64,000 nt of DNA from Antedon mediterranea (Eukaryota > Animalia > Echinodermata), in contig NC_092673.1 in NCBI RefSeq assembly GCF_964355755.1, forward strand, positions 5,084,001 through 5,148,000. The letters are read 5' to 3'. Made by a program: the position numbers and the translations under genes. The notes below the pieces were generated by a model. The model did not search any database and had not been told where the DNA came from. It worked only from the letters and a program-made list of their open reading frames with translations. Of the stretch, positions 24,735 through 50,014 are shown one piece after another. Numbering within the stretch: the first letter of the stretch is position 1; each line of letters begins with the position of its first letter.

Positions 24735-27700
24735 TCAATGTTTCTGAAGCATATTCTGTAGTTCCTCAAGTTCTCGTTTCTTCTGTTCATATTTTTCAAG
24801 CAGCAACGCATCCGTGTCGGTAGATGGAGATGGCAAGAAAGCTGGTCTGTGGGATGACAACGGAGTATCGTGTATACCTGTAACAGGGGATGCATTCTGG
24901 AAAACCTATAATGAATAATAGAGTATATATAGATATTATTATTAAATATGTTATACTTGGTGGATCTTGGAACAAGAAAATGGTTAAATAGCATTTCTTA
25001 ATCAGTATAAAGACCAATTTACACAGACGAGCTGTAACGGTAAGCGGAAAGCCATGCTTGTCCTACGTAGAACCTGTATTTATTCCAAACGGAAACCGCT
25101 CGTCCGCTCCTTGTTGTGTATAAATGGTCATAAGGAATAACATTCTATATATAAGATTCTATAATTGTTATTACCGTTGCCACTCGTCTGTGTAATTTGG
25201 CCTTTAGGGAGTTTCGATTGACCTGGGAACTACACACATTGTGTTTTTGAACACTGTCAATACCCCCTAACCTCTCTAAACATTTTTATTTTTAGAATTT
25301 AAATACAGAGAACCTATCTTTTGGGACACCCCTACTAAGATAACTTCCTGTGAAATGAATGAGTAATACTGTCGACTCCGCCTAAGTCGAATTCGCGTAA
25401 GTCGAAAAATCGCGAAAGTCGAATTTTTAGGAAAGTCCTAATTCTTTCCTATACATTACTGTGTAATTTTTATTTGTAAGTCGAATTTTTCTAAGTCCGA
25501 ATACACACATTCTTTAGTGATTTATATCGTATAAGTCGAAGTCACTAATTACGCGGCAACAACGTGCTAAAAAAGCCGATGAAACGTACGTAATTCGATA
25601 AACAAACAACACAGGGGATAATGTGGGACCATATCGGTTCTCTCAAGCAGGTTGTATAGTATAGGTGGCGTCCTACAACTAACTCGCGCTAGTGTATAGT
25701 GTATGAGTTGTTTAAGAGTTGAGAACTTGAGCGGCGTTTTGTGGGTACGTACATACATTTTAGAAACAAGTTAACCACTACTATTAGAAATCGGAAAAAA
25801 GAATATTATATGGTCCAGTTTGAACGAAATAAACAAGATATTAAAAAAACGTGGACAATCCTAAATGATATAATGGGTAGGAAAAAGACTACCAATTTGC
25901 CTACAAAAATAAAATTGGGTACTGAGACTTTCTCTGATAATGATGAGAAAGCTGATGCATTCAACTCTTTTTTTATTAATATTGGAGAAAAACTAAATAA
26001 TAAATTTAGGCATGAATCTCAAAATGAAGAAATCACCCACAGAACTTTCTTAAAGAGAAATTTTACCTCTTCAATGTTTTTTAAGCCTGTTACTGAACAT
26101 GAACTTAACCACTATATTAAAAACACAAAGAATACTTCTCCTGGCCATGATGGTATAAGTGCCCAACTCATAAAATCTGCTTCCCCGTTTATTTTAAAAC
26201 CTTTATTGCATATTATTAATACGTCATTATCATCGGGCTGTGTCCCGGCTGATATAAAAATTGCTAAAGTTATCCCGGTATTTAAGAATGGTGACATCTC
26301 CGATATAAATAATTATCGGCCTATTTCCATTTTACCCTTTTTTTCCAAAATATTTGAGAGGATTGTGTATGATCAAACGATTTGTTACCTCTCAAAATAT
26401 AACGTACTGAGTAAAACACAGTATGGATTTAGACAACACCATTCAACTAGTCATGCTTTAATACAATCGATTGAAAAAATCACAAACGCTATTGAGAATA
26501 AAGAGTTCACACTAGGAGTTTTCCTTGATTTATCAAAAGCGTTTGATACAATCGATCATGATATATTATTAGATAAGTTAAGATTTTATGGTATAAGAGG
26601 AGTTCCGCTAAACTGGTTCTCAAACTATCTTAAAAAAAGACTACAATACACATTTATTGTTAATACTGCATCTAGTAAAATGACAGTAAACACTGGAGTT
26701 CCTCAGGGATCCATATTGGGTCCATTATTATTTCTTATATTCATTAATGATATTAGTCTAGCATGTAACCATGTAGACATGATTATGTATGCAGATGACA
26801 CAAATGTGTTTTATAGTCACAATGATATTACTCAAGCTTTTGATACAATGAACCAGGAGTTATCTATACTTTCGGACTGGTTTATTGCTAACAAATTAAC
26901 GCTAAATGTAAACAAATCAAAATATGTTATATTTAAGGCTAGAAATAAGTCAGCTGACACTACCTCACTAGAATTGAGGATGGGAAATGAATGTATAGTA
27001 AAAGCTACTGAAGTTAAATTTCTAGGCTTATTTCTGGATGAAACTTTATCGTTTAATTTTCATGTAAATGAGGTAGCAAACAGTATTTCTAGAATAATTG
27101 GTGTCTTAAACAAAGTGAAGTCTATGTTATCAAGTAAAATCTTGTTAACGGTATACAATGCACTTATATTACCTAGAATAACGTATGCTATCACAGTATG
27201 GGGTGCTACTTCTGCTACAAACTTAAACCGTATACATATTCTCCAGAAAAAAGCACTTAGAAATATTTGTCATGTTCATTTTATGCATCCTTCTCATCCA
27301 CTTTTTATTTCAACCCAAACATTAAATATTTTTGACCTTTATACGAAACACACTGCTATATTTATGTATCAATATAAACATAATCTATTACCTGAATCAT
27401 TTAATAACTTATTTAGTACATCTGCCTCATTCCATAATTACTCAACTAGAAACAGGTCAAACTACTGTCCACAACTAAAACGCACCAAAGTCGGACAGCA
27501 ATGTATTTCCTACCAAGGAACACATATTTGGAACAATTTAACAGACTATATAAAACAATCCCCCACTTTAAGTTTGTTTAAACAGAGATTAAAGCAATAT
27601 TATAACAATAGAAATATTTAAGTTAAGTAAATCACATTATGTTATTTTGGTTTGTTCTTTTTGTTTGTACTAATTGTTTGATCTTTTTGTTAGGGTTACA

Positions 27701-30700
27701 TGCTTAAAGCACTTGTGCTTATTTTGTATCCCATTCCATTATCTTATTATTTGTATTGTATTTGTATATGTTTTTATTTTGATTATGGAATAAAAATGTC
27801 GATGAATTGAATTGACCTATTTTGTGCTAGACAGATGGCAATAAACAATGGATACCGATTTCAAATAAGAACCGAAATGTATTTATTATACGTTTTTGTA
27901 TTGTTTTGGGCTTAAACCATAAAAGAAAATACAGTTTATCATTGCCGATAAAGAGGCTTAGCATTTATTAGGCCTAGCTAGCTAGCTAAGCAAACTCAAT
28001 TCAAGAAGGCTCATCGCGTGGGCCGCGATCGCGACAGGGCAGGGTCCACTAGGCCTAGCCATAGCGCGGCTAGTGAGCGAACCTAGGCCTAGGCCTAGCA
28101 TTTTTTTGGCAAAGTCGAAGTTCGCGTAACTCGAATTTTTATACCGGTCCTATTAGATTCGACTTAGGCGTTTCAACAATATCTACACTTTGTTTGGTTA
28201 AGAAAATGTCCCTTTAATGGCAGTCATACTGTATTGGATGCTGATGTTACCAACGGTTTATTACAAACACTGCTTCAATGTTTGACGAGCTAGATTGACA
28301 ATTGACAACAACATGGATGGTAAACATCAAAAAGGATACAGAACTTTTCACATGCGAACCTATACACATGCTTGCTCAAAAACGTACAGAGTGGCGAACA
28401 CAAGTGAGACGCCCAATGTCTAACAACGATTAGCGTTTAAGATGATGATGAGATTGACAATTAAAAGTGTGCATCACCAACAAGCTAAATCTTTGTAATC
28501 TACCATACCTTGTTTAAGACTTCATTTGTGGTGGGATCTGCAACTTCAATATAATTCCATCCATCGTCATGCGACATCAGTTTTATATGCAAAAGCTTTT
28601 CACCTTGCCCAAGAACATCTTTAACTCTCTCAATAGCTCCCTCAGACCATGCACTGCCTTGGTCTGGACGGGTTCCTTAAATAGAAAAAAACAGAAAAAG
28701 TTTATACTCTAAAATTCATTTACCCGATTCAATAAAATGATGTGAAATAGAAAAGAAAGAAATAATGATGGTGGTACATTGGAGCGTTTCCACATGAGGG
28801 CGTGGTTTTGGAATAGTCCATTATTGTTCAGAGGTGTTCTAGAAACTTGTTAGTTTCGTATCCAAGCCCTCCCTGAGGACAGCATGGGCAATTGTCGGTT
28901 TATCCAGGTAAGCTAGGCACGAAATAGACAATGTGTAATACGTATGATGCATATCGCTCTTGCCACTGAACTTCTACTTATGTTAGTAGCTCTCGTGTTA
29001 ACTTTCGCTGACCAACTCTATAGAACTTAAAAACTAGTTGTCTAGTATCTGGAAATTAGTCAAACTTATTGATAGCATATTGGGGAGAATTCAACTATAG
29101 TTATTCAATATTATATTTTTGGGAAAAAAACTAAGATTAATCATATTTTTTTGCAACAGCATGTCAACAATTAGCTGGTTTTAATACACAATTTTAAAAT
29201 TATTACTGCAATGCTGAAAGTTTTATCACATAATAGATAGAAACAGATAAATAATACAGTGTCAAAAATATTGGTAAAAAAAACCTACCAGCTAAGCAAC
29301 ACTTTATAGCTAAGCATGGTGTAGTTGAAAATTCCTTGTCGAGTGGGTGAACGCTGTCAAACGCAACCTTCGCTTTGTTGCCATAATCTACATACTGGAC
29401 AGAGGCACACTGATTGTCGACGTTAACATCCAAAACAAGAGCTCTGTACCAACTCTGGTCCTCTTTTAAGAGAATGAATGAAAAGCAGTCAATTTCAAAT
29501 TACACTCATTGCATATTTCTGTGACCATTAACTTTATGTTAAAATCAATAGTTTAATCTTCTGGTAATTATCAATGAATGGTACATAGCAGTGTGTAATT
29601 TTGTAAAAGCTTGGAAGAGAAAGAGGCCTGATTTGGATGATTCGTTGAATCATCCAAATCAATCATTCAATCATGGTAAACCTGCTAGAATTCAGTGTGT
29701 GACACAATAAACAAATACATGTGTGGATAAACAATATTTGAATAATAATAATAAACATTTTTAAAGCTCTGTTTACCGATGTCTCAAAGACCATAAAAAA
29801 TTATGAAACGGATGAGATTGACTTGAATTGCTTGATAATAGATTGACACGGACAGATATGGAGTGGAGCTGGTTCCAAACCAATGGTGCTTCAGTTATAA
29901 AAAAGCTTCAAGGTGTGTTTTTGGAATAACAGCCTCATCCAGAATAAAGACCTTTATTTGTATCAGGTAATAGTATACATGTTGTTATAAGAAGTTGGGC
30001 AATTAATATCATACATACCTGCAAATATACTGCAGCACATCTCGCCCTTCCTTGGAACGTAGTCGTAATTCTTTCCCTTGTTGGCGTATCTTATGTTTAG
30101 GCTTTCCATAAGGTTCTTAAGTGCAAGAATATCTGAAATTAGAACAAATAATAAATTTAAATAAATCAAATTAGGATACAACAATAAAGGTCGATAAAAA
30201 TACATATATGTATTGTTCCATCTTTATGCTTCAAACTCATCGCCTTGTTCTTTGGATGAGATGTAAAGCCGTTGGTCGTGTGAAAATAAATATTAAATAA
30301 CTTGGCATGCAATTAGGGGGATCGCCTCCTGGTGTGGTGATCGTGACACTATGGCTGCTGTAGGCCTGTACAGGCCTAATCTGCATAAATTCTTTTTGGT
30401 TACATGACGAAACTTAAGAAAGTTTAGTGAATACACATGTATATTGACTGCATGCCAAAATATCAAAATGAGCCTCACCACTTATAGGATTGGAACATTG
30501 AACATTTTGCGTTTCTTTTTTATCCCGAATAATGCGATGTTTGTCGTTGATGTTCTTAAGGAGTCGCAAACTGCCAACTCTAGAAAGATGAAGACCACGT
30601 CTGTCCAGAGTGGAACGATCCACGGTGCCATCATTTAACAGAAAATTGACATCGTTGTTAATCTGTATACAACCGCTTTGCACCGACAATTCCCGGAGTT

Positions 30701-33700
30701 TATAGTTTAACTTATTGACATGCGCTTGAAAGGATCCATCATCAAACCGAGGACATACGGTTGAGAACGCAATGGTCAAATCCGGCGCCCTCCTCTTTAG
30801 ATCGTCGAAAATCTCATCATAGACACCCTCTGCAAATTTCTCATCAGCTTCTGTCGTGCAATCGTTCGTACTGCCGTGAATTATTACTGTACTAAATTCA
30901 TGTACAGGCGCTTCATCTAAATGATGTTTAATGTCGATTACTCTTCTCCCTCGAAGACACACAACTTTTGTATTTTCTAGAATATCTTCGTCAAAGTCTC
31001 TTACTATCGAGTCGCTGATGATAAGTGTTTTGGGCTCGGACCTAGCATCTAGTGGATCATTAGTTACATACTTTGTAGACTCGACTGTTGTAGGAACATC
31101 TAATAGAAAAATGATTCTATAATGCAATATCGAACGTTGAAGGCAAATAAATCATATGTTATTTTTATTGGCCTATGTCCTCCCTGAACTAAATGATTCT
31201 CTATTTCTTTTTCTTCTTGTCTTGTACGTATCCATGTTGATTTTTGTCAAAAATAAATGTTGAATTGAGAAACAATAACTAATAATGATGATGTCGATGA
31301 GATGAGTAAAGACACAGATAACAATAGACAATTAAATAAAGACAAATGGATAACTCTTGAAATTATAATTAAAAAGATGAAGGTTGAGGATTAAGATACA
31401 GGATTAGGAACAATATGATGAATATATGAAAATTTACGAGGATTAAGGATTAAGACATGGATTAATTACTTACCACCTTCCACCCTTGTACAGTAGAACT
31501 CAGATGGACTGACGACATACATAACAGTTGCTTTCGTTTCGCATTGTAACTCCAACTCTCTGAATACAACTGTTGGAACGTTTTTATCGACTTCTGAAAA
31601 TAATCAAATGATAGTACAAACATAAATATAGAAATTATTATTATTACATTATTTATAAAGAGATTAGAATTTTAAATGGTCTTATTATGTCTAAGTAACT
31701 GAAAAATGAAGAAAAAAAAATGTTTTAAATGGTAATATGTAATATATCTTCAAACACTTGGTTCAGGTATTTTTATGATGGCACAATTTTTGTTACAAGG
31801 TACTCTGGTTGGCAGGCAAAGTTAAATAAGCCCACTGTTAGGGATTATAATATTTATAAACTAGCCCAAGATTGTTAAGTGATTATTTCCACAAGCCCAC
31901 AAGAGACATTTCAGGTAGCCTCTAGTAATTTGTACCAATACACACCAGGGCTACTGCTACCCCAATCACAAATTAGCACTACAGTACATGTTCCTCATTT
32001 TAAACACCTAACGTTCTGTCTACACCATCAAACTAGTTGGACAAAAAAAAGTGTGATGTGCCCAAATATGGTAGTGATATGACATTATCATGTCCATATA
32101 TGAGCACATCACATAAAGTTTGATAGTGTAAACAGAGCCTTAGGCATTTAATCAACTCCTGCTTAAATTCATAAATGCATAATATTTCACTCACGCTTTG
32201 GCGATTGTACTGGAACGATGTAGTCTGCATTTATTGGTCGGTTGGAACCTTTTTTGTCAAATATCTCAACAAGACTGACTCCTTTTGGCGTGATACCAAC
32301 TCTTTTCACTCCAACAACTTTGTTCACAAACTACAATACAGTAAATGAAAATTAAAATTTGAAACATGAAAACATAATCCATGACCCCACTCTAATCATA
32401 TATTCTACATATGGGATAAATGAAATCTGTTTGTGTTTACAAACTAACGCTCTGTCTACATTACCAAACTTTATGTGACAACACAATGTGATGTGCCCAA
32501 ATATGGTAGTGATTTGCTCAAATATGGTAGTGATTTGCCCAAATATGGTATTGATATATCATCATCCCATATAGGCACATCACATTTTTTTGTCACGTCA
32601 AGTTTGATAGTTTAGACAGAGTTAATAGATAAACCATGAACATAAAACAATGTGATGGGGTATAATTTTGTTTCGGATTGCTTGATTCTGATTGGTCAGA
32701 AGTTTATTACTGTATCTGTATAGAAGGTTACCCAGATCATTATATGTTATTACTTCTTCCATGGTTAAACATACAATTATTCGTATTGTTCTGTTACTTT
32801 TCGGATTGAAGACATGATTCAAAATATTATACAAACCTTTTCCGCAAATTCTTGTGACTGTTTATCTTTTGGATTATCAGTGATTGGAGCACCATGCAAG
32901 GCACAGTGGATGGCTACAACTGGAATTTTGGAATATGGCTCTTTGATTCGGCGAACATCTTCTTTCTTGACTGGATCAATGTTTCCGTAGTCAATAAATT
33001 TAACATTCAGTTTGTTAGTACCGATACTCAAAACTTCTGCTCTGTACCAGTAGTCATCACTGAACTTCGCGATGCACAATTCTCCAACGACTGGCAAATG
33101 CACTTCTTTTATATTGCTGTAATCTTCGGACATTGGGTCACTAATTTGTTGGATGGCACGGACGGAGGTTGGTTGATTGACCTGAACATAAAAGCTACTA
33201 GGTCCATTTGCAACGTAGATCATCGCAGTTTCTATTTTCCCCTCTTTCAATGACATCATTTCACATTTTTCTGCCATTACCGGGCTAGGAGGTATATTCT
33301 GATTGTTGAACTTTTGAAAGTTGCTTGGCTGATGTTGATAACCATTGTAAGTAGAGGTCTTGCCATCATTTCTGTAAGAATTTTTACCTCTCTGTTCTTG
33401 ATTGCCATAGTTTTCTGGTGATTTCACATCACCATTCATGGGAGATCTATTATTATAGGTACTCCTTTGTCGATACGAATCTTGGTTACTGCTGGATGGA
33501 CTTCTTTCTTGAGGTGTAGTATTACTGTATCCTTGCCGCATGACTGGACTACTTTTTTCTTGAAACTTTGTCGGACTGTCTTGAGAAGGTGTGGGCAACA
33601 ACGGCGATTTACTTTCTGTTTTTGTGTTGTCACCGGTCAATAGCTCAATCATTAATATGCCATTCACTTTTCCAGAAACTTGTATTTTGATCCTGGTTTC

Positions 33701-36700: not shown

Positions 36701-39700
36701 CTAAATCACTGTATGTATGATTAAAAAAAAATGTTTGTATTTGTTTTATATGATCAAAACAATTGTTCAAATTGTTTTTAATCATACAGCATTCATACAG
36801 TTATCAATTTAATGAGAAACATTTTACAGTTTTCCGAAATCCCCTGAACGCTGTTACTTTTGTTTTTTTACGCTTGGCTGGTCATGTTTGTGTGATGGCT
36901 TCTATCGCGTACCAGGCGAAAATCATGTCCTAGACTTCACGGTCACTCAGCGTCACCGCCGCGCAGCAGGTTAATGTTTTTAAATTGGGTATGCTCAAGA
37001 GGTGCGAAAGTGCAGTACCGCCGGCCTAGGCCTACAAATTATGTACGACGGTATGTCGTATGCTAAAAATATTGAGGAAAATTCCCTCGTATCGTTGTTG
37101 AACCTAAGATAATATAGGCCAAAGCACAGAGTACACGTCTTTCCATCCCTCAAAGCTGCGTCAAAGCGTTTCTGTCAGGGCGAGAAATTTACACCGTCCC
37201 GATTATTTATTTACACAACAACACAGAAGCCGACGGCCGGCCCCGCTCAGCTGTAAAAATGCACGTGTGTGTTTAGCTAAATCCCTGTTAGACTCTACCA
37301 TTTCCCGCATGTTGTTTTGTTTCCTCTACTGACGCACGATGGAAGTTTATTACAGGTAAAATATGAAACTACATTAAATTGGAAGAGTCTAAAATGCATA
37401 ACGCATAAATTGTTGATTTCGATAAGATTAAGACGTCATTCATCGAAGATACTATGTTTCTTTTTAATCAGAAAAGTACACCCCTATCGAAAAACAGACA
37501 ATCCCGGTAATTAGCCGACCGTCGGCTATCGTAGTCGTTTGTGCAGCGCACAACACGTGATAGTTTGGGTAGACTTCACATCCATGTGTCGTGTAACGTC
37601 TGTCTCTCTATGCAGTCTACCTCTGCTATCTTTATCATAAGCCCCTTTCTCACAGATGTGTCTGCAATATACCGGTACAATGCTGGCGTCGTGCCGGTAT
37701 CGTTACCGGCATATACCCATTCTCATCGGACTATCGTGCCGGAAATATAACCGGTATATACCGGCTTTCTGTGAGAAAGGAGTCGGGCATATTCGGCCGA
37801 TAAAAAGTCTCTGACAAAATAATTATTGAGGGCGTCCTTTATTGTTATTATTTTTGTCTAGGGATATATGGCGGCGAATGTTAGGTTACAGATTATTATC
37901 TTCCTTTATAGCATATTTATGCAATACATGCTATGTACAGTATATTGTGCATATATTATACAGGTACAGCAATTAATTAGCCGTCATCGGCAATCTGTAA
38001 AACACCTTAGAAGGCTGTACAATTTACAAGGCGACGAAGGGTCAGGCTAGTTAGGCACCAACAAAGAGCTAGGCCTAGCCCTAGGCATATATGGCCTAGA
38101 GGCCTGCTATAGATTATGCTACAAATTTCTTCTTGTCCCCTTATTTTAAGCAGCTCTCTTATCTCATTATCCCTCCAGTTCGACATTATTATTGTTAATT
38201 GAATTGGCGCCAAAGTGATACACTTGACCGCGCAAGGTGTCTGAAGCCTCGACAGGGAACCCCGGAATATAACGGCGTTACGTTCTCACAGAATGCCCGT
38301 CTGGCATTGCGGGGAATATCCCTAGAATATTACTAGGTCTAAAGCAGGTCATGTCGATGCCGGCATGGTGCCGGCATGATGCCAAGACGACCCGTTCTCA
38401 CAGAAAACCATACCGGCATGGTAATGGTATATTCCCGCAATATTCCAGGCACTCAGCTCTGTGAGAAAGGGGCTATATTGAAATAACAAAGAGACGCCGG
38501 GTACAACGAAACAAGTTGACGAAAAATGGAGCTTGAAATAAACAACATGATAACGAACAAAATAAATCCTTGGAGATCAACAAATGGACCTTTTAGTTGG
38601 ACTTTATGCTTTCGCCAAAATGATTATTTGATTATCTATTTTATCATATGACATCGCCAAAATGGCTAAAGTAGCCGTTTTATTTTTCGCCAATCTGGAA
38701 ACGTTTTCGCCCATGGCGACTTGGCGATAGGCCAGTGCGAGCCCAGTAATAGAACGAAATCGCCGACCGCTGCGCTTCAACTGGAACATACTAGAGGCCG
38801 GATGAAATTGATCCTCTTTGATAGCCACTGCCTTTTTCAGAAGAAGATCCGAAAATATGTTCTCCAAAGGCAATTGAGCAGATCCAATTATAGGCTATGC
38901 AGTCTTGACTATTCTATTTAGCGTTAAAGAATACGTTATGACACTCTCTATAACTGACCTATAGAAGGACGACATTATTTCAGAGTTTATACCAAATGAT
39001 CCAAGTGACACAATGAAACATTTATTGAAATATATCTTATTTAATGCTTAAGCTCTGTCTACACTATCAAACCAGTTTGAAAAAAAAAATGTGATGCACA
39101 CAAATATGGTAGTGATATGATCACTATGTCCATATATGGTCACATCTCATTTTTTGTCACATAAAGTTTGATAGTGTAGACAGAGCTTTAGTTTATATCA
39201 TCTTTTCATATTAGCTAGGCAAACCGAATATTGTTTTCAGCTTAACTAATAAATTTGAATCAATTTATAAAAAAAAAAAATATATATATATACCGTATAT
39301 GACCTAGTCTTGAGGAGTTGGAAGGGAGCGAAGTATCAAGTTTGAGGAAAATTGGTAAATGGGATTATACTCAATATTGCATGAACCAAAGTCTTGTCTT
39401 GAAATTAGCCTGAATTAGGGGTTGGGCTTATACTTGAGAAGTGATTATACTCAGTTGTATACGGTGCATTAATCCTTGTACAAGATTATATACAATAACT
39501 ATTCAAATTAATTATTACCTGTAATTCTTGTTTTTCTGGTTGAAAATAATCCAGATCCTTCAGATAGATATAACTATCTTTTTTGGCAAAACCTCCAAAC
39601 GCCTCTAGTCTGTTATTAAAATTAAAACTTTCATTAAATACAGCAGCAACAAATTATCACTTTCTTTTCATAATCATACTGGCATAGATATTCATAATAC

Positions 39701-42700: not shown

Positions 42701-45700
42701 TTTTTCCATACGAGTGCTTGGAAGTGTGCTCTTTTTATATGTTGGTGCACTGCATCGCTTGGTGGAGGTAATGCCTTTTTTTTTTAAAGCCTAACTTTAT
42801 TGGTACTTTTAACTTGACCAACACCGTAAACGTAGCAAATGAATCTTTCCGATTTCATAATAACTTGGTCACTGATCGGTTTTCTCCCAGGTCTTTAATT
42901 AGTTCATACCTTTTTTTAATACTTCTCATGCCGATGCCTTTGAGTGACCACTTAGATATGAGCAGTGAAGAGTTAAATTACTGTATGTATGTATTAATGT
43001 AATTTAACTCTTCCCTGGATATGAGGTAGTATCGCATCCACTAATAGTGTGGAATGGAATCAGTGCTTTTGCAGAACCCTCGGGCAAGGCTTGAAAAATG
43101 TCTTTTATAGATACTTTCTTTTTTTGGATGTCCCTGTCATCATCCATTTGGATACCATGCTTTGGTAGTGAGACACTAGAATCACTAGTACGTCTGTATC
43201 CCTAGAAGCAACTACAACTGTGTCGTATCGGACATTGGCAGCATGACAAGTCTCGTGTCCGATTCTTCATGGTCTGACCAGAGACAACGTATTCGTGTAC
43301 AATTTTGATGATTTAACAACTGATTCTTTCATAAATGCACCAGCTGTGACAATTTCTTTGTCTATAGGAGCTTGACGAATCAACTCCTCTGATAGAAATC
43401 GTGTCAGATCTGCATTATTATCTTGTAATGCCAACAAGTTTGACCAGCAATTTGGCAGCGGTATTTCACCACTTTCTATAATTCGACGAATTGGTCTCTG
43501 TGTTTTGGTTCATCTTTGTCTGGTGGTGTCCTTTATCGACAGTTTTAAGTTAGGCATGCCATGTTTAAAAAAAAAAAAAAATTACCTCCAACAAGCGATG
43601 CAGTGCACCAGCATCATATAAAAAGAGCACACTTCCAAGCACTCGTATTGAAAAAAGCTGTATCGCCAATCCAGCATTTGCCATCACCAACATATTTTGG
43701 TTGGAAGCTATCTAATGGTAAACTTTAACCAGTGCTTCTGAAAATGAAGCTATTCCTACTGCTTCGTTAGAGATGATTTATTGTGGATGCAAGACACGAT
43801 GCATAACCATATAGATGTAGGTGCAAAAAGTCAAAACTACCATGTACAGCTTTAATATGCTACTGTAACAACGCTAAAGATGACGGAAACCTTTGCATGA
43901 ATGATCAAAACTGATGCCCTTAACATGTTCATCCCAATGTAGCTTACGTGTTCACTATTCTTTCAAACCTATACAATTATAATCCATCATATTGATGGCA
44001 GGTAATTTCCAAATTTCCAAATGTGGCTGACGTGTTCAAATTCTTTTTTAATTCTATAATCATAATCCATCATATTGATGGCTGGTACTATACAATCATA
44101 ATCCATCATATTGATGGCAGGTAATTTCCAAATGTAGCTGACGTGTTCAAATCCTTTTTTAAATCTATAATCATAATCCATCATATTGATGGCAGGTAAT
44201 TTTCTAATGTAGCTTATGTGTTCAAATTCTTTTTTAAATCTATAATCATAATCCATCATATTGATGGCAGGTAATTTCCAAATGTAGCTGACATGTTCAC
44301 ATTTAAAAAAATCTATAATCATACTCCATCATATTGATGGCAGGTAATTTTAAATTTCAACAAATGTAACTTGCGTGTTCAATTTTTTTTTTAAATCTAT
44401 ATAAATCATAACACATCATATTTGATGGCAGTGAATTTTATAATTTTACTAATTATTATTGAGTATAAATAATTTCATAGTTATGCAATTATATTATATT
44501 ATATTCAGTATACAGTAGGCCTATGCTGTAGTTTAAAGGTCAATAACCATACTATCGGCCATTCTTGTACAAAATGTGCCATTAGACTGTATAGAAACAC
44601 ACATGTTTTAAACAATTTAAAAAGAAAAAAAAATTCATAAGACCACAATTTTCAAAGTTATATTATTATTATATTATTATATTTGACTAATAGTTCAAAG
44701 GTCAATAGTTGTAGAATCGGCCATTTTTTGTAAAAACATTTCATTATAATAAATAAGAATGTATAGTTTCTGAACAATTTGAGCCCTATTTCGTGTCTCT
44801 CCGATTATTGGTTACTGAGATACGATAAATCAAGGTCAAAGGTCAAAATGTCAGAAATACGACTTGCATCAATTTATTGAGAAAATGTGTCATTAAAGTG
44901 AATATAAAAACATATATTTAAAACATTTTGACACCAAAATTAATTATCTGTGACTAGTGGTTCTCGAGATATAGGGTAATTATAAAAAATGGCCGCCATT
45001 TTTAATTATGCAAATTAAGGGCTTAGATGGCCGAATTTCGCTTGGGATCCGCCATATTCGTAATCAGCGAGGTCAAAATATCCTAAATCAAGTGGATCCC
45101 AGCTTCTACCCAAAAATGCTTCTTACATCATATTTCAGAGGAAATAGAACTTGTCTAATAGACAAAATAGCCGTTTTATTAGTTACACACGCTTGCTCGA
45201 CGATGACAGGCAGAGACTATGCCTTACTACTATAAAGGCCTAGCTACTACTAACCAATATTATGTCTATTAGCATTCACTTTACTTACCTGGCTTGAATG
45301 GATTTACAATGCAACTTGTGTGAAGGCCAGTGTTTCTGTTGACATGCTTGTGTGCAATATTTACTCTTGCACGCTGAGCAACATCGCATTCCTACAGTTT
45401 AGTAAGCGTGAAACATTCTGTTATTATCAACTAACTTTTTTAAGTGTTTTAAGAAACGTAATCAAATTAAGAATTTCAAATTATACATATTTGAAAACGA
45501 TGGTTAAGGGTGACAGCATGACTGAAGAACTAATTTTTTTTTTTTATGAAATTTATCTTACCTGGACGTCCACAGTTGAGGCAAGGAGCAATAGTTGTTG
45601 TTCCAGCGCCGTCAAAATGCTGGCTTTTACTAACAACTTCTTGTTGGCCCTTTGAAACACTTGTGTCAACCACAGAAACATTCTCACTTGGCTGCACTTC

Positions 45701-48535
45701 CTTTTGATCTAAACTACTATGTCTGGATCTTTGAATTTGCGCCGACACGTTCTTTAAATCCTCAGCCTCAAGTTCCCCGAGATTGAGTCCAGTGCTGTGA
45801 ACATTAACTACAGTGTCATTTAACGTTCCCGAAAACTGAGCATTGTCCGTCTTGAGAACGAGCGGTTTATCGCTCATACGCACCTTACGTTGATTACTCT
45901 CTACACGAACCTGAATTAGCATAGCACCTTGACTTTTGAATGAAAATGTTTTTTTAAGATTTGGTTGCGCATCTCGTTTCGTTTCTTCTCGCGCATGATC
46001 TACGTCACTACGATCACTCGAAGACATTTCTCGGCTACCATACCGATTGTCCATTCTACGGGGACTACGACTACTGCTTTGCGATTCACCTCCGCTGAAG
46101 TGGAAAGCGTTATCTGACCCTTCGTTCTAAAGAATAACAAAAAATGTTTGTTTAAAAATCCGATAAGAATTTGGTGCAGGGTCAGGCAGAGGTACGGAAG
46201 ATTACATCCAGACTTTAGGGCCAGATCGTCTTATGCTTTGAGCATGATGGCCCAGTATTAGATTCGAACCCAAGAAAGCAGCAGGTATTCTCAAATGTAC
46301 TTGATATGAAGTAATTAAGATATTAAGCAAACATGTAACCAATTAACTGAGCTCCCTGATGCAAAGCTACTTCAGATATTATCATGTATGCTCAGTTTGT
46401 ATTAAATTGTCTAAAGCTCTGTCTACACTATCAAAAAAAGTGTGACGTTCCCAAATATGGTATTGATATGCCCAAATATGGTAGTGATATGACATCATCA
46501 TGTCCATATATGAGCACATCACATATTTTGCCACATAAAGTTTGATGTGTAGACAGAGCTTTATTCGATGGGGTCAACCATCTTCCTGCAGTACCAGAAC
46601 AGATACAGTAGAACTGAAAATCCACTATTGATACTTACCTTCAGATACATTTCCGTATCTCTGGCAACTCTCAGTTTGAGTGTTTGACTTCCAACTTGGT
46701 AGTTGTTCAACTGTGTGTGAGCCTTGCTGAGTTCACTAACGGTTGACATTCCAACAAAACTATAACAAATTTACAAAATTAATCATATAGCCTACGACTA
46801 CTCCAAACATAAGAAAGCTATTACTCTGTCAGTTAGTAATGTTTGTAATCAGGGTTGTCTTGGTTTCTTTAAAAGACTATAAAAGAAGATCGCTCACCCA
46901 AAAGTTGTTTCAGTGTCCTGTCGATCAGATTTGCAAATTTTGCAGGAGACAACTTTTCCAGCTCTTGAAAACAGATTTGTTAATCCCTCCTAAAAAATTT
47001 ATTATATTATAAAAATTATAAACTTTATTTTATTTTGTATATCTTTTCATATTGTTACGGATAAACATAGAGATAGGAACTGAACAACTAGAACTAAAGA
47101 AAATCCATAACGAATGCAATACAAGACCTAACAAATTGAAAGCTAGAGAATTTTAATTTGAAATTATTTATGGTAGTCCGGACCTTTCGATTTTGCGCCA
47201 ACCGAGGTAGTCTTATGGAGTTTTGGTTCGGCAATTTTATGTCTGGTCCAAATAACAATCCTTATTGTATTACAGATTTAATGTAATAACTATTTGTATA
47301 GCTCGTTTCACAAACAATGTTATCTCGATTAAAAAAAAAAACCCAAGAAACGGCCTAATTAACAACAGAACAGAAACAAAAAGATGCAATTTCAGTTTCT
47401 CCAAAAAAAAAAATGCTGAGATATATTTGACTGTTGCTGCCCACCTGAGGGAGCGGTCATGGACGATACCACTGTCTTGGAGGAGAATACTAAGAATATT
47501 TATTCTTTTCGATACGTTCTCCCTCGAGAGGGAAAAGCTTTATGTTGGTTTATCCAGGTAAGATAGTCAAGTGACAGACAGTGAAATGGAGGTTGTTTCT
47601 TGAATGCTAGATAGATCATAGCTGGTATTGAATTATTCCTTTGGGTATCATGAAAAAAAATTTAAATTTGTATTATAGAGCTGGTCAATGACAAATGACA
47701 TGTAAGAAATTGAAAGCTTCTGGGAGGGTTTGGTTCAAATCATATGCTGATCATCTACAACAAGAATTTACCTGGGTCATCTGTTTTGGGATTCCTGATA
47801 CATAAAACTGAAATCCAGTGTGACGCACAAGTCTGTCATATTCTTGATTACCTTTTTTGGCACTCATACTGATATGTGGAGATACACAAATAGAAGTTAA
47901 TTGTAAATTAATTTTTATAACATATTGGTAAGTATAAGAAAATATATGAGAAAATTACAGGCCCTCCAAAATTACCTAGAGTAATTTTTTCTGAAGAGTC
48001 AAAAGCATAGCATGGTGTGTACATACAGAATTGCTTAATCGATACTCTAAATACGATAACACTAAAAATGAAATAGTACATACTTTCCTGGAAGACCGGT
48101 CTCATAAGAATTGAATTTATCATCGTTAAATTCATCCTTCATGGGATTCCAATTGTTAAGTTGAGAAGGTGACCTATAAGAAATAAAAGCATGTGACAGG
48201 TTTCTCAAACTAGGCAGCATAAGGCGTCTTTATTTTTATATATATTTAAGCAAATTGCCAAGAATAGCCATAAGCGAATTCATTCACTCTTTGGGAGTAG
48301 AGTTGTCATTTGTCAAAACTCCTGACATATGACAGGACTTGACCCCAGGACCCTTGGATTGGTAGCCAAGCATTAAAACCACCAAGCCACAACTCCACTC
48401 CACAAAATGTTCTTAATTATCATTTAAACTTGTTCTGAATTTGTTCGTCTCCATCTACATTTTTATGTTTTGTTTTTTATCAAATGTTAATGTTATAATA
48501 CATAGTTTATTTATTTAATGTACTTACTTCTCCAT
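24735..48535 (-). CDS. TDRD1: Tudor domain-containing protein 1-like piRNA-pathway factor (RRM + zf-MYND + 4 extended Tudor), ~1295 aa (~1502 aa if the SGNH exon is included)
   Basis: Phase-consistent GT-AG exons: 48535-48528, 48173-48084, 47868-47772, 46989-46898, 46759-46639, 46126-45562, 45391-45289, 39609-39519, 36213-36073, 35732-35559, 35133-34965, 34597-34354, 33947-32837, 32330-32195, 31593-31474, [31099-30479 optional], 30132-30019, 29462-29289, 28675-28509, 24905-24735 (TGA). Four WYR...DYG Tudor cores, a MYND finger, and head-to-head with CCDC186 as in human. Confidence 0.88.
25741..27621 (+). CDS. Non-LTR retrotransposon ORF2 reverse transcriptase, 5'-truncated (CR1/L2-group)
   Basis: 626-codon open frame with SPGHDGI, NYRPISIL, QYGFR, FLDLSKAFDT, GVPQGSILGPLLF, YADDT, KFLG motifs; no endonuclease domain. 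Confidence 0.95.
   Translation: MGTYIHFRNKLTTTIRNRKKEYYMVQFERNKQDIKKTWTILNDIMGRKKTTNLPTKIKLGTETFSDNDEKADAFNSFFINIGEKLNNKFRHESQNEEITHRTFLKRNFTSSMFFKPVTEHELNHYIKNTKNTSPGHDGISAQLIKSASPFILKPLLHIINTSLSSGCVPADIKIAKVIPVFKNGDISDINNYRPISILPFFSKIFERIVYDQTICYLSKYNVLSKTQYGFRQHHSTSHALIQSIEKITNAIENKEFTLGVFLDLSKAFDTIDHDILLDKLRFYGIRGVPLNWFSNYLKKRLQYTFIVNTASSKMTVNTGVPQGSILGPLLFLIFINDISLACNHVDMIMYADDTNVFYSHNDITQAFDTMNQELSILSDWFIANKLTLNVNKSKYVIFKARNKSADTTSLELRMGNECIVKATEVKFLGLFLDETLSFNFHVNEVANSISRIIGVLNKVKSMLSSKILLTVYNALILPRITYAITVWGATSATNLNRIHILQKKALRNICHVHFMHPSHPLFISTQTLNIFDLYTKHTAIFMYQYKHNLLPESFNNLFSTSASFHNYSTRNRSNYCPQLKRTKVGQQCISYQGTHIWNNLTDYIKQSPTLSLFKQRLKQYYNNRNI
25750..27815 (+). mobile_element. 5'-truncated LINE in the last TDRD1 intron, antisense to the host gene
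   Basis: RT ORF, T-rich 3' UTR, AATAAA at ~27789 and a short (GAATT)n tail. Confidence 0.9.
28304..28450 (+). mobile_element. Short 3' remnant of RTE-type LINE
   Basis: Encodes TTWMVNIKKD...AQKRTEWR-like C-terminus (frameshifted), (GAT)n tail, 12-bp TSD AGATTGACAATT at 28292-28303 and 28451-28462. Confidence 0.65.
28509..31593 (-). CDS. TDRD1: TDRD1 extended Tudor domain 4 exons (31593-31474, 30132-30019, 29462-29289, 28675-28509)
   Basis: ATVMYVVSPSEFYC...PRKGEMCCSIFAEDQSWYRALV...VQYVDYGN...AIKCCLAG...WSEGA. Confidence 0.88.
30479..31099 (-). CDS. SGNH/GDSL esterase domain of LINE ORF1 type; candidate in-frame cassette exon of TDRD1
   Basis: Motifs LIISDSIVR, CLRG, IIHGSTND, GLHLSRVG; acceptor TTTTTCTATTAG| before 31099 and donor TG|GTGAGG after 30479; 621 nt, phase 1-1 matching both neighbouring exons. 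Confidence 0.7.
32837..33947 (-). CDS. TDRD1: TDRD1 large exon: Tudor 2 core, S/Q/N-rich linker, Tudor 3
   Basis: CATKFVDNYWYRG...VLYVDYGN and CIAKFSDDYWYRA...VKFIDYGN in the 373-aa ORF; acceptor TATAG|, donor AAG|GTTTGT. Confidence 0.93.
34735..34870 (-). mobile_element. Degenerate tRNA-derived SINE (V/Nin-domain-like)
   Basis: Minus strand TGGCCTAGCGGTTAAGAC...GGTTCGAG head followed by agtcttctcggata..gactataaaccgtaggtcc. Confidence 0.5.
34965..36213 (-). CDS. TDRD1: TDRD1 extended Tudor domain 1 exons (36213-36073, 35732-35559, 35133-34965)
   Basis: HLVSPDEIWIQ...PKVGTLCAATTDEEWYRG...VRLIDYGD...ASPCKLVDIEPIDGKWSTEA. Confidence 0.88.
36445..38746. mobile_element. Non-autonomous DNA transposon, TIR CTGGG(T/C)T(A/C)GCACT
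   Basis: Inverted ends, TTAGCC/TTCGCC/TGGCGA subterminal repeats at both ends, TAATA duplicated on both flanks; superfamily unresolved. Confidence 0.6.
37640..38474. mobile_element. Harbinger-like non-autonomous element nested in the previous element
   Basis: TIR AGCCCCTTTCTCACAGA, ATA on both flanks; internal minus-strand MSNWRDNEIRELLKIR resembles the start of a Myb/trihelix ORF. Confidence 0.7.
39788..39965 (-). mobile_element. Penelope-like element terminal repeat fragment in a (TA)n tract
   Basis: Second, inverted copy at 59902-60058; contains a hammerhead core; TA-microsatellite flanks. Confidence 0.65.
39923..39959 (-). ncRNA. Minimal type I hammerhead ribozyme-like motif
   Basis: GCA-CUGAUGA-A-GGGC-UAGUGUU-GCCC-GAA-AGCU-C-UGC: core boxes, 4-bp stem II, palindromic stem III, only a 3-bp stem I. 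Confidence 0.6.
40096..40167 (-). pseudogene. tRNA-like sequence (Asp-derived, anticodon ATC); pseudogene or repeat head
   Basis: GCCCCAGTAGTCTAATGGTTAGGACAACTGCATATCAAGCAGACGGTCTGAGTTCGAGTCTCGGTTGGGGTG folds as a 72-nt cloverleaf with A/B boxes; anticodon arm is non-canonical. Confidence 0.6.
41710..42425. repeat. Minisatellite array in the left arm (mirrored at ~43935-44435)
   Basis: Units containing ctgccatcaatatgatggattatgattatag...gaatttgaacacgt.agctacatttggaaatt; more copies in the left arm than the right. Confidence 0.9.
42445..43530 (-). pseudogene. Decayed Academ transposase C-terminal region (nuclease + Cys-rich finger)
   Basis: ORF 42445-42750 (HQHIKRAHFQALVWK...GW...CGCK) plus frameshifted nuclease motifs at ~43050-43530; inverted decayed copy at ~43585-43915. 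Confidence 0.8.
45289..45590 (-). CDS. TDRD1: TDRD1 MYND zinc finger (split over exons 46126-45562 and 45391-45289)
   Basis: Spliced peptide CLNCGRPGMRCCSACKSKYCTQACQQKHWPSHKLHC. Confidence 0.9.
46639..47868 (-). CDS. TDRD1: TDRD1 N-terminal RRM (exons 47868-47772, 46989-46898, 46759-46639)
   Basis: FYVSGIPKQMTQEGLTNLFSRAGKVVSCKI...TFGFVGM...AHTQLNNYQVGSQTLKLRVA: RNP2, RNP1 and the terminal strand are present. Confidence 0.88.
48261..48390 (-). mobile_element. Degenerate tRNA-derived SINE
   Basis: Minus strand GTGGCTTGGTGGTT...GGGTCAAGTCC tRNA-like head. Confidence 0.45.
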
Positions 48536-50014
48536 TTTATTAACAATGTTCTGTGGCACTGTTAATCTAATATTATGACAGCTGCAAAAATAAAAAATAA
48601 TTTAAATTAAAAATTAGAGAAAATTGTCATATTATACTGTAGTTTCACAGAACCAGACCCTCAAATTAAAAAGTGCTAATATTCTGAATCAGTAATGGAG
48701 TTTACATCATTGTTTGAGATTTGTTTTCTCAACTCAAAAATACCACTATAAAATCATCATTTTCAGAAATAGCAATACAATAAATAATGAAATACAATAA
48801 ATAATTTACAAGAGTATAAAATGACATGATCTCAAAGAATCTAGGTCTGTGCGCGCGATCGACGTTCCGATACTATATTTAGAATGTTAACGATCTTTTT
48901 GTTGTCGGCATCGTTTCTGGATCGACTGGACGTTTTATTTTTAGAAGTTGGCCTCAGCATATACTATTACTACTACTAGTTCATTGTGGTTCACCGCGTG
49001 GTGCTATCATGCCTCTACCGTGGGAAATTTTTATTTATTTATATATTCGCCGTCGAGTTGAGTAGATAAAAAAAATGATTATGATTATCAATATTTATTA
49101 ATAAATGCTTCCGAATAATTTACAAATTGGTCCCCCGTCAGTCAAAATTGACTCATTAATAATATTTAATTGTGCACACCTTGTTACCTAAAAAAAAACA
49201 TCTTCATGCATTTTTTCCGACCTTATTATGAAATGTGTGGGTTTGACGGAGTAGCCGGAAACCCCACTACCCCCCATTTTTTTACTGGGGAGGGGGGGGG
49301 TCGCCGATCACCACTTATGACATGCTAGTAACATCCCTGAATTGTTACCTGTCACTAGTTTGTAGATCCTGACTGGGCCAGCGAGGGCTCTCTGTCACTT
49401 TATTCGATAACTTCGACGGTACAGAGTCAAAACAGTTCTCTTCTAAAGAAGGCCTAAATGAAAATGTTAATATAAGTAAATATATTTTAATTTAGTTTAC
49501 TGTTTAATTTAATTAACTCTTTATTTGCAGAATGCAAGACTAGGGATGCTGTATTGTAACCTTTGCTCTGGCTGCTAAAGGTATTTAGTGCCCTCTACAG
49601 TATATCGATCTATAATACTGTACTTTTGGTATTAAAAGTGGATATCCCTCTTTTTACACGTATAATGGACTACACCATGCAGGAACGCACATGGTATTTT
49701 CTTATCAGAGGGTGCATGTTCGTCAAAAGGAATTTGTTTTTCCAACGATCCTTCGTTCGGCTCTTCCTCGCAATCACGATTCGAACATACCACGTAATGT
49801 GAAATTTCGAGGAACGTATTTAGCTTGATTATTAAAAGTGTACACCCCTGTATTTTAATGTACTATCTATACTATGATTTACCACGATATTGTTTTTACA
49901 ATTACAAATATGTTCAATGTTTTGTCTAGGCGATGGAGTGCATGGATACCACCCTGCACATGTTTATTTTTAAAAAACCACATGGTTGATCGCGAAAAAC
50001 AAAAAGTTAACAAA

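What the first reader, a model, noticed from the sequence alone, without database searches (positions are those of the whole stretch)
24735..48535. RRM-MYND-4xTudor architecture bridges vertebrate TDRD1 and insect Vreteno/Veneno
Seen: spliced exons give a complete RRM, then a MYND finger, then four extended Tudor domains. Established: vertebrate TDRD1 is MYND + 4 Tudor with no annotated RRM; Drosophila Vreteno and Aedes Veneno are RRM + MYND + 2 Tudor. Inference: this is close to the ancestral bilaterian form, with RRM loss in vertebrate TDRD1 and Tudor loss in insects. CCDC186 adjacency independently ties it to TDRD1.
Basis: partly seen in the sequence, partly recalled or inferred. Interest (0 to 1): 0.72.

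Follow-up and report, generated by a model that had tools for sequence, protein, structure and literature searches.

The report
Crinoid TDRD1-like gene keeps an RRM
One feather-star gene encodes an RNA-binding RRM, a MYND zinc finger and four extended Tudor domains, joined on one assembled spliced RNA contig; many invertebrates share this layout, so it is likely the older form of the germline piRNA scaffold TDRD1 rather than a rare bridge.

Summary
The window comes from the crinoid Antedon mediterranea. It carries one intact minus-strand gene of 21 GT-AG coding exons (52493 to 24735, about 1352 aa). The product has a conserved N-terminal Trp motif, a complete RRM, a MYND finger and four extended Tudor domains.

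One 3310-nt spliced contig of run X1 joins the RRM, MYND and Tudor exons. NCBI splits the locus into two models, P0092 and P0001/P0002.

RRM+MYND+Tudor proteins with the same N-terminal motif occur in a cnidarian, molluscs, nemerteans, a locust, a tick, echinoderms, hemichordates and amphioxus. None of 22 vertebrate proteins named TDRD1 has an RRM. RRM loss on the vertebrate lineage is therefore well supported, but this gene is not a special bridge.

Extended Tudor counts in the family run from 3 to 8 by my own profile. Only the first Tudor groups with vertebrate TDRD1 Tudor 1 (70/90). One-to-one matches for Tudors 2-4 are neither shown nor rejected. I could not confirm by name that the neighbour is CCDC186.

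Verdict: a new member of a known kind, of modest interest.

The parts
52474..52493 (-). First coding exon (coding part): ATG CTG TGC TCA TCT CTA AT followed by GTAAGT. Its last two bases would complete an ATG with the first base of the next exon.
   Evidence: the only AT|GTRAG donor between 49453 and 54900. It encodes MLCSSL, the N-terminus of NCBI model P0092. Its joining to exon 49453 is inferred; NCBI joins it to exon 48581.
49349..49453 (-). Coding exon (105 nt) encoding PSLEENCFDSVPSKLSNKVTESPRWPSQDLQTSD.
   Evidence: tblastn of Anneissia P0003 residues 2-37. AG/GT flanks. A 164-nt X1 contig covers exactly 49349-49453.
48528..48581 (-). Coding exon (54 nt).
   Evidence: Joint 48171|48526 (cut +2), CT..AC, on the 3310-nt X1 contig; sequence read.
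48084..48173 (-). Coding exon with the conserved N-terminal motif WNPMKDEFNDDKFNSY.
   Evidence: (joint 47868|48084). W33, P35 and Y48 are invariant and F45, N46 nearly invariant in 27 family members.
47772..47868 (-). RRM exon 1 (RNP2, FYVSGI).
   Evidence: (joints 46988|47771 and 47868|48084, CT..AC).
46898..46989 (-). RRM exon 2 (up to the start of RNP1, TTFG).
   Evidence: (joint 46759|46898).
46639..46759 (-). RRM exon 3 (rest of RNP1, helix 2, strand 4).
   Evidence: (joint 46126|46639).
45562..46126 (-). Linker exon (565 nt, Ser/Arg-rich, mostly low pLDDT) ending in the first half of the MYND finger (CLNCGRPG).
   Evidence: (contig piece 45561-46126).
45289..45391 (-). Second half of the MYND finger.
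   Evidence: Pfam zf-MYND 26.3 bits. Joint 45390|45561. Eight zinc ligands are invariant in 27 sequences. pLDDT about 95.
39519..39609 (-). Coding exon, start of extended Tudor 1.
   Evidence: In one search, three exon pairings with canonical sites keep the frame open, and this is the one whose length (232 nt) fits the 234 unlisted contig bases between the pieces.
36073..36213 (-). Extended Tudor 1, N-terminal part.
   Evidence: Pfam TUDOR on 36049-36234.
35559..35732 (-). Extended Tudor 1 core. Its aromatic cage is incomplete (-YLYD).
   Evidence: Pfam TUDOR E 7.4e-15; contig piece 35558-35730; cage residues.
34965..35133 (-). Extended Tudor 1, SN-like part. NCBI model P0092 ends by reading through this exon's donor (…TQGKEGNV).
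   Evidence: Contig piece 34968-35132 joined directly to 34354-34600.
34354..34597 (-). Exon linking Tudor 1 to Tudor 2. It holds the internal Met (34517) where NCBI models P0001 and P0002 start.
32837..33947 (-). Large exon (1111 nt): Tudor 2 core, a disordered linker and most of Tudor 3.
   Evidence: Pfam TUDOR E 5e-41, 2 stretches; 100% identical to P0001.
32195..32330 (-). Coding exon, SN-like end of Tudor 3.
31474..31593 (-). Coding exon, start of Tudor 4.
30019..30132 (-). Coding exon, Tudor 4.
29289..29462 (-). Tudor 4 core (cage FYYYN).
   Evidence: Pfam TUDOR E 1.3e-19.
28509..28675 (-). Tudor 4, SN-like part.
24735..24905 (-). Last coding exon with a C-terminal coiled tail and the stop codon (24737-24735).
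54915..61000 (+). Divergent (head-to-head) neighbour gene encoding P0091: 1104 aa, acidic N-terminus and a long coiled coil. The end coordinate is approximate.
   Evidence: Identity as CCDC186 was not confirmed.

Best explanation
This is one intact 21-exon gene of the feather star Antedon mediterranea (minus strand, 52493 to 24735) whose spliced product carries a conserved N-terminal Trp motif, a complete RRM, a MYND finger and four extended Tudor domains. It is likely the crinoid ortholog of the TDRD1/Vreteno family and is predicted to act as a piRNA-pathway scaffold.

Shown here: the exons, their GT-AG junctions, the open frame, the domains, and an assembled spliced RNA contig that runs from the exon before the N-terminal motif through the RRM, MYND and Tudor 1 exons into the Tudor 1-2 link exon.

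Inferred from the family:
- Tudors 2-4 have complete aromatic cages (FYYYN, FYFYN, FYYYN) and would bind symmetrically dimethylated arginines on PIWI N-termini.
- Tudor 1 has a broken cage and would bind an unmethylated partner, or only give structure.
- The MYND finger would recruit a partner or drive granule localisation, as in Aedes Veneno.
- The RRM would hold target RNA, as shown by CLIP for the long isoform of Bombyx Vreteno.

Evolutionary reading (inferred): motif+RRM+MYND+several extended Tudors is the old eumetazoan layout. Vertebrate TDRD1 lost the motif and the RRM after the split from amphioxus.
For: Species and exon identity: the query exon is 100% identical to NCBI Antedon mediterranea proteins.

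Gene model:
- Colinear tblastn of the 1371-aa Anneissia japonica 'TDRD1-like' protein P0003 over the whole locus.
- All junctions AG/GT with an open frame.
- 58% identity to P0003 over 1316 aligned residues.
- P0001 equals model residues 635-1352 (718 of 718). P0092 residues 8-572 equal model residues 43-607.

Transcript evidence:
- One 3310-nt contig of run X1 (depth 22.7) holds the pieces 34354-34600 | 34968-35132 | 35558-35730 | ... | 45289-45390 | 45561-46126 | 46639-46759 | 46898-46988 | 47771-47868 | 48084-48171 | 48526-.
- The six joints listed are all CT..AC.
- Runs X2-X4 run straight through these introns.

Domains:
- Pfam hits.
- AlphaFold2 gives RRM pLDDT 93-97, MYND about 95 and Tudor 1 at 86-97.
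- The best PDB matches are the mouse and human TDRD1 extended Tudors 4b9w and 5m9n (E 1.7e-14, TM 0.78 on the target).
- The eight MYND zinc ligands are invariant in 27 sequences.

Family range:
- 24 of 28 family-like hits have RRM+MYND+Tudor.
- The named ones come from Cnidaria, Mollusca, Nemertea, Arthropoda, Echinodermata, Hemichordata and Cephalochordata.
- 22 of 22 checked members have the N-terminal motif.
- 0 of 22 vertebrate proteins named TDRD1 have PF00076, and none has a significant match to the motif+RRM profile.

Link to TDRD1:
- All first Tudors of the deuterostomes form one group with vertebrate TDRD1 Tudor 1. Amphioxus is next to the vertebrates (85/81), and the split has support 70/90.
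- The cage pattern (broken, FYYYN, FYFYN, FYYYN) is the same in both crinoids. For Tudors 2 and 3 it matches 5 of 5 vertebrate TDRD1, for Tudor 4 it matches 3 of 5, and the broken Tudor 1 cage is seen in 4 of 5.

Function of relatives (passages read): PMC7560202, PMC10711660, PMC6411831, PMC9002060.
Against: - NCBI annotates two separate genes here: P0092 (RRM-MYND-Tudor 1, ending in intron read-through) and P0001/P0002 (Tudors 2-4).
- The bridging evidence is an assembled contig, not one sequenced molecule.
- X1 is only guessed to be RNA.
- Contig positions 1-1369 were not listed. I infer that they are the next three exons because their lengths sum to 1367.
- At the exon 12/13 joint the contig reads CAG where canonical splicing of the reference gives AAG. 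I read this as a SNP.
- zf-MYND scores just under Pfam's cut-off on the whole proteins: 21.3 bits on P0092 and 20.7 on P0003, against 22.7.
- Tudors 2-4 show no one-to-one match with vertebrate TDRD1 Tudors, either in the trees or in a BLAST score matrix.
- The Tudor 1 grouping is not strongly supported, and vertebrate Tudor 1 moved when a cnidarian, a scallop and a locust were added.
- Synteny with CCDC186 is unconfirmed.
- No expression site, PIWI binding or RNA binding was tested.
Confidence: 0.8

Rival explanations
1. Two products rather than one. The locus mainly makes a short RRM-MYND-Tudor 1 protein that ends by reading through the exon-12 donor, and a separate Tudor 2-4 protein from an internal start, as NCBI annotates. 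On this view the joined form is a minor isoform or an assembly join.
For: NCBI models P0092 (575 aa, ends ...TQGKEGNV) and P0001/P0002 (start at the Met at 34517). Bombyx Vreteno has long and short isoforms that differ in the RRM (PMC7560202, passages read). The contig's ends fall at points where alternative splicing is annotated.
Against: The X1 contig joins 34968-35132 directly to 34354-34600 and continues on both sides. The reading frame is continuous. The Anneissia ortholog and every named relative are single proteins. The two NCBI models abut, 27 residues apart, without overlap.
Confidence: 0.15
2. A paralog of TDRD1, not its ortholog. An ancient RRM-bearing lineage (Vreteno-like) and an RRM-less MYND-4xTudor lineage (CG9925/TDRD1-like) could have split before bilaterians. 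This gene would belong to the first lineage, and vertebrates would have lost that lineage rather than the RRM.
For: Drosophila has three 'Tdrd1 orthologs', of which CG9925 is MYND + 4 extended Tudors without an RRM (PMC9002060, passages read). Tudors 2-4 show no one-to-one match to vertebrate TDRD1. I could not survey the crinoid, hemichordate or amphioxus genomes for a second, RRM-less copy.
Against: In the deuterostome tree the first Tudors follow the species tree, with amphioxus Tudor 1 next to vertebrate TDRD1 Tudor 1 (85/81). In the 89 hits, MYND without RRM occurs only in vertebrate proteins. Locusta and Ixodes proteins with an RRM also have four extended Tudors, which fits duplication and RRM loss within insects. 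NCBI names the deuterostome proteins 'TDRD1-like'.
Confidence: 0.12

Closest known systems
Vertebrate TDRD1 (mouse, human, zebrafish)
   Same: MYND finger followed by four extended Tudor domains. Tudor 1 groups with TDRD1 Tudor 1 (70/90). The cage pattern is shared: Tudor 1 broken (4 of 5 vertebrates), Tudor 2 FYYYN and Tudor 3 FYFYN (5 of 5), Tudor 4 FYYYN (3 of 5). The best structural matches are TDRD1 extended Tudors 4b9w and 5m9n.
   Different: It has an N-terminal Trp motif and a complete RRM that 0 of 22 vertebrate proteins named TDRD1 show. One-to-one matches for Tudors 2-4 are unresolved.
Insect Vreteno (Drosophila, Bombyx) and Aedes Veneno
   Same: RRM, then a disordered linker, then MYND, then extended Tudors. 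The literature treats these as homologues of Tdrd1 (PMC7560202, PMC10711660, PMC6411831, PMC9002060; passages read).
   Different: They have two annotated Tudors (three extended Tudors by AlphaFold in Bombyx) against four here. No Vreteno or Veneno sequence was in hand, so neither the motif nor orthology was tested.
Predicted 'TDRD1-like' proteins of other invertebrates: Anneissia P0003, Saccoglossus P0119, Branchiostoma P0111, Diadema P0168, Locusta 'Tdr1' P0153
   Same: The same N-terminal motif, RRM, MYND and 3-5 extended Tudors. P0003 is colinear with this gene and 58% identical.
   Different: These are other species. For Antedon itself the public annotation is split in two.
Drosophila Kotsubu (CG9925)
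   Same: MYND + four extended Tudors; called a Tdrd1 ortholog (PMC9002060, passages read).
   Different: It has no RRM. Its sequence was not compared here.
Vertebrate TDRD10 (RRM + one Tudor, per Table 1 of PMC12147562)
   Same: It combines an RRM with an extended Tudor.
   Different: No MYND and a single Tudor. I had no TDRD10 sequence, so any relation of its RRM to this one is untested.

Membership tests
TDRD1 (vertebrate type) | MYND-type zinc finger N-terminal to the Tudor array | tested here: met
   zf-MYND 26.3 bits on exon 45288-45398. Eight zinc ligands invariant in 27 sequences. pLDDT about 95. On the whole proteins the score is just under the cut-off (21.3 and 20.7 against 22.7).
TDRD1 (vertebrate type) | Four extended Tudor domains | tested here: met
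   Four full-length matches to my extended-Tudor profile. Pfam TUDOR on the exons. Fold match of Tudor 1 to TDRD1 extended Tudors.
TDRD1 (vertebrate type) | Domain composition as in vertebrates (no RRM before the MYND) | tested here: not met
   Complete RRM: 40.8 bits on P0092, with a canonical fold.
TDRD1 (vertebrate type) | Orthology by tree | tested here: inconclusive
   Tudor 1 groups with vertebrate TDRD1 Tudor 1 (70/90), but not when distant taxa are added. For Tudors 2-4, AU tests give p 0.19, 0.14 and 0.37: not rejected, not shown.
TDRD1 (vertebrate type) | Conserved neighbourhood (tdrd1 beside ccdc186, nhlrc2, dclre1a in gnathostomes; bioRxiv 10.1101/2023.01.25.525509, passage read) | tested here: inconclusive
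   The head-to-head neighbour P0091 is a long coiled-coil protein. Its name is withheld, its precomputed family PF27942 is not in my Pfam copy, and it has no PDB match.
TDRD1 (vertebrate type) | Binds sDMA-modified PIWI proteins; germline nuage component | not testable with these tools
   Only the cage residues can be read: they are complete in Tudors 2-4 and broken in Tudor 1.
Vreteno/Veneno (insects) | N-terminal RRM followed by MYND | tested here: met
Vreteno/Veneno (insects) | Two (Bombyx: three) extended Tudors | tested here: not met
   Four here.
Vreteno/Veneno (insects) | Orthology by sequence | not tested
The ESM Atlas lists arthropod TUDOR+RRM+MYND clusters as nearest, at scores of 0.77-0.80, which is a lead only.
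Invertebrate RRM-MYND-multi-Tudor 'TDRD1-like' proteins | N-terminal motif W-[ND]-P ... F-N-x-Y, then RRM, MYND and at least 2 Tudors | tested here: met
   The motif is at model residues 68-83 and is present in 22 of 22 members checked. W, P and Y are invariant in 27 sequences. 24 of 28 hits have all three domains.

The most novel reading that the evidence does not exclude
The N-terminal W-x-P...F-N-x-Y motif together with the RRM is an ancestral eumetazoan module of the TDRD1/Vreteno scaffold. It is conserved from sea anemone to amphioxus and was lost once on the vertebrate stem. The motif is an undescribed docking element for a partner or RNA, and its loss would explain why vertebrate TDRD1 must obtain its target RNA in another way.
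Probability: 0.4. Interest if true: 0.5.

Novelty: new member of a known kind. Interest (0 to 1): 0.3.

Why it matters
- It corrects a split public annotation of a germline gene in a crinoid.
- It shows that the RRM of insect Vreteno is not an insect novelty. It is part of a layout that runs from cnidarians to amphioxus.
- This bears on a question raised in the Bombyx work (PMC10711660): how vertebrate TDRD1, which lacks an RRM, is given its target RNA.
- It points to a conserved N-terminal motif that my literature searches did not find described.
- None of this overturns current views, because Vreteno and TDRD1 are already treated as homologues.

Tried and rejected
- No RNA holder is listed for the stretch. 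X1 is only a guessed RNA run.
- The search for homologous proteins with residues 60-430 of P0003 found only P0003 itself.
- The representative search was swamped by multi-RRM and multi-MYND proteins. I picked 28 of the 150 listed rows by hand: those whose best stretch starts at profile positions 1-6 at the protein's N-terminus.
- Identity of the neighbour as CCDC186 could not be settled:
  - ESM Atlas on its first exon gave only generic coiled-coil clusters, at scores of 0.86 or less.
  - Pfam gave nothing specific.
  - The PDB sequence search gave 0 matches.
  - 'PF27942' occurs in no paper and is not in the held Pfam.
  - Earlier scan notes had nothing.
- Remnant of the motif or RRM in vertebrate TDRD1: the best full-sequence E is 0.61, and that hit is not N-terminal. 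Marsupial hits just before the MYND have domain E of about 21, which is chance level.
- My regular expression for MYND matched none of 14 vertebrate TDRD1 proteins. The pattern was too strict, so this is no evidence about MYND.
- The BLAST score matrix between crinoid and vertebrate Tudors has no diagonal.
- The IQ-TREE 'careful' run with the mixture model on 67 domains did not finish in two calls (473 s). Only its quick tree was seen.
- The FastTree of 106 domains left the deep forks open.
Full report
WHAT THE WINDOW IS. The window is AT-rich eukaryotic DNA (GC 0.27-0.37). The largest exon of the finding (32822-33940, minus strand) is 100% identical to two NCBI proteins of the crinoid Antedon mediterranea. 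These are 'tudor domain-containing protein 1-like isoform X3' (P0001, 718 aa) and 'uncharacterized protein isoform X2' (P0002, 924 aa).

CHECK OF THE OBSERVATION. Pfam on stop-to-stop ORFs of the minus strand finds TUDOR at 36049-36234, 35496-35732, 32822-33997 (two stretches, E 5e-41) and 29206-29499, and zf-MYND at 45288-45398 (26.3 bits).

A tblastn of the 1371-aa Anneissia japonica 'TDRD1-like' protein P0003 lies colinear on the minus strand from 49449 down to 24747. From that result, the exact sequence of P0001 and canonical splice sites, I built a model of 20 exons. I then added a first coding exon with its ATG at 52493.

The result is 21 coding exons, all AG/GT, with an open frame of 1352 aa that is 58% identical to P0003. 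The RRM spans three exons. On NCBI's partial model P0092, which is identical to model residues 43-607, Pfam gives RRM_1 at 40.8 bits over positions 2-70 of 70. AlphaFold2 gives a canonical RRM at pLDDT 93-97, MYND at about 95 and Tudor 1 at 86-97. The best solved-structure matches are the extended Tudors of mouse and human TDRD1. My own extended-Tudor profile finds four full-length domains.

The 5' limit (48535) is an internal Met, and two coding exons lie further upstream.

ONE TRANSCRIPT OR TWO. NCBI annotates two genes here. P0092 ('uncharacterized protein', RRM-MYND-Tudor 1) ends by reading through the donor of exon 12. P0001/P0002 start at a Met in exon 13. The two models abut, 27 residues apart.

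Against the split, run X1 holds one 3310-nt contig (depth 22.7). Its listed pieces are 34354-34600, 34968-35132, 35558-35730, 45289-45390, 45561-46126, 46639-46759, 46898-46988, 47771-47868 and 48084-48171, plus 56 bases from 48526. The six joints listed are all CT..AC, which is GT..AG on the minus strand. Runs X2-X4 run straight through these introns, so X1 behaves as spliced RNA.

Four caveats apply:
- This is an assembled contig, not one sequenced molecule.
- X1's kind is only a guess.
- 234 contig bases between the listed pieces fit exons 9 and 10 by length only.
- Positions 1-1369 were not listed. Their length equals exons 14-16 (1367 nt) plus 2.

At the exon 12/13 joint the contig reads CAG where the reference with canonical sites gives AAG. 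I read this as a SNP in another individual.

HOW COMMON THE LAYOUT IS. A profile of motif+RRM...MYND (alignment A1) was run over 1.84 billion representative proteins. The top 150 were largely multi-RRM proteins. I selected 28 rows whose match begins at the N-terminal motif. Of these, 24 have RRM+MYND+Tudor by Pfam.

The named members are:
- Cnidaria: Nematostella.
- Molluscs: Mytilus, Haliotis, Ylistrum, Potamilus, Mactra, Mya, Aplysia, Elysia, Lymnaea, Batillaria.
- Nemerteans: Tubulanus, Lineus.
- Arthropods: Locusta ('Tdr1'), Ixodes.
- Echinoderms: Diadema, Lytechinus, Acanthaster.
- Hemichordates: Saccoglossus, Glandiceps, Ptychodera.
- Cephalochordates: Branchiostoma.

None is a vertebrate. 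All 22 members that I checked carry W-[ND]-P ... F-N-x-Y just before the RRM. W, P and Y are invariant in 27 aligned sequences.

None of 22 vertebrate proteins named TDRD1 carries PF00076, and none has a significant match to the motif+RRM profile. Extended Tudor counts by my profile are:
- 4 in both crinoids, Saccoglossus, Locusta, Ixodes and vertebrate TDRD1.
- 3 in amphioxus and the two urchins.
- 5 in Glandiceps and Ylistrum.
- 6 in Acanthaster, 7 in Gigantopelta and 8 in Nematostella.

RELATION TO TDRD1. In a deuterostome-only IQ-TREE (50 domains, LG+G4, ultrafast bootstrap/SH-aLRT), all first Tudors form one group (70/90). Inside it, amphioxus sits next to vertebrate TDRD1 Tudor 1 (85/81). 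The other groupings are:
- Crinoid Tudor 2 with Acanthaster Tudor 2 and hemichordate Tudor 3 (88/90).
- Crinoid Tudor 3 with Acanthaster Tudors 3-5 (97/93).
- Crinoid Tudor 4 with urchin Tudor 3, inside a 'last-domain' group that also holds vertebrate Tudors 2 and 4 (91/91).
- Vertebrate Tudor 3 with hemichordate Tudor 2 (83/81).

Read literally, the crinoid's four and the vertebrates' four are not the same four, and Glandiceps with five would have one of each kind. AU tests, however, do not reject one-to-one clades for Tudors 2, 3 and 4 (p 0.19, 0.14, 0.37).

Trees with more distant taxa leave the deep forks open, and vertebrate Tudor 1 moves. A BLAST score matrix shows no diagonal. The cage residues are suggestive. 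Both crinoids have a broken cage in Tudor 1, then FYYYN, FYFYN and FYYYN. Vertebrate TDRD1 shares the Tudor 2 and Tudor 3 signatures in 5 of 5 species, the Tudor 4 signature in 3 of 5 and the broken Tudor 1 cage in 4 of 5.

SYNTENY. A long coiled-coil gene (P0091, 1104 aa) starts at 54915 on the plus strand, about 2.4 kb from the first coding exon of this gene, head to head. In gnathostomes tdrd1 lies with ccdc186, nhlrc2 and dclre1a (bioRxiv 10.1101/2023.01.25.525509, passage read). I could not confirm that P0091 is CCDC186.

WHAT IS KNOWN (passages read, not whole papers).
- Vreteno and Tdrd1 are treated as homologues with different layouts. Bombyx Vreteno has a long isoform whose RRM binds RNA in CLIP and a short one without the RRM (PMC7560202).
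- Bombyx Vreteno has three extended Tudors by AlphaFold. The authors ask how RRM-less Tdrd1 is given its target RNA (PMC10711660).
- Drosophila has three Tdrd1 orthologs, and only Vreteno has the RRM (PMC9002060).
- Aedes Veneno has RRM + MYND + two Tudors, and its MYND is needed for granule localisation (PMC6411831).
- A 2025 survey puts TDRD1, 2, 4, 5, 6, 7, 15 and AKAP1 in one noisy group and lists TDRD1 as ZnF-MYND only (PMC12147562).

Searches for an explicit statement that TDRD1 once had an RRM, or for the motif, found none. Supplements were not read.

VERDICT. The inference that vertebrates lost the RRM is well supported by taxon distribution. The idea that this particular gene bridges two families, or preserves the ancestral set of four Tudors, is not: the layout is widespread, and Tudor number and identity vary. 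Function is inferred from relatives only.

Noticed in passing
window 34965-35133 and 34354-34597 (-): NCBI's annotation splits this gene into two models: P0092 (RRM-MYND-Tudor 1) and P0001/P0002 (Tudors 2-4). They are 27 residues apart. A spliced RNA contig bridges them.
   Followed up: yes
window 48084-48173 (-), and N-termini of P0003, P0005, P0079, P0100-P0232: A conserved motif W-[ND]-P-x3-[DE]-[FY]-x4-F-N-x-Y lies just before the RRM in all 22 family members checked, from Nematostella to amphioxus. It was not found in vertebrate TDRD1. AlphaFold2 gives it only moderate confidence (pLDDT about 48-72).
   Followed up: partly
window 30417-31151 (-): A 245-aa open frame with a weak GDSL/SGNH-hydrolase match (32.3 bits, just under the cut-off) lies in the intron between exons 16 and 17. 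NCBI isoform X2 (P0002) includes it as an in-frame exon. It may be an exonised mobile-element ORF.
   Followed up: partly
window 25723-27618 (+): A 632-aa reverse-transcriptase ORF (RVT_1, E 4.4e-36) from a LINE-like element lies antisense in the last intron.
   Followed up: partly
window 41025-45124: A 4.1-kb foldback-like element lies in intron 8. Its outer arms are 632 nt and 99% complementary, further inner arms are 86-99% complementary, and there are internal tandem repeats.
   Followed up: partly
window 13556-15329 (-): A homeobox gene. Its homeodomain is split between exons 14426-14710 and 13556-14131 (KKKARTVFTNNQLRDLQATF...KTWFQNRRMKWKR). I did not determine the class.
   Followed up: partly
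window 52493-54915: The Tudor gene and the coiled-coil gene P0091 are divergent, with about 2.4 kb between their first coding bases. This suggests a shared bidirectional promoter region.
   Followed up: no
window 6630-8321: Long codon-like simple repeats are open in several frames on both strands (His/Arg-, Asp-, Ser- and Met-rich translations). This is probably a microsatellite-like array, not a gene.
   Followed up: no
model residues about 248-300 (window about 45800-45960, -): Inside the otherwise disordered RRM-MYND linker, AlphaFold2 draws four short strands and a helix at low confidence (pLDDT 42-60). The stretch is conserved between the two crinoids.
   Followed up: no
window 48581 and 31474 (-): Both ends of the 3310-nt RNA contig fall at exon borders where alternative joins are annotated or implied: exon 0 or exon 1 onto exon 2, and exon 16 onto exon 17 or the GDSL-like exon.
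   Followed up: partly
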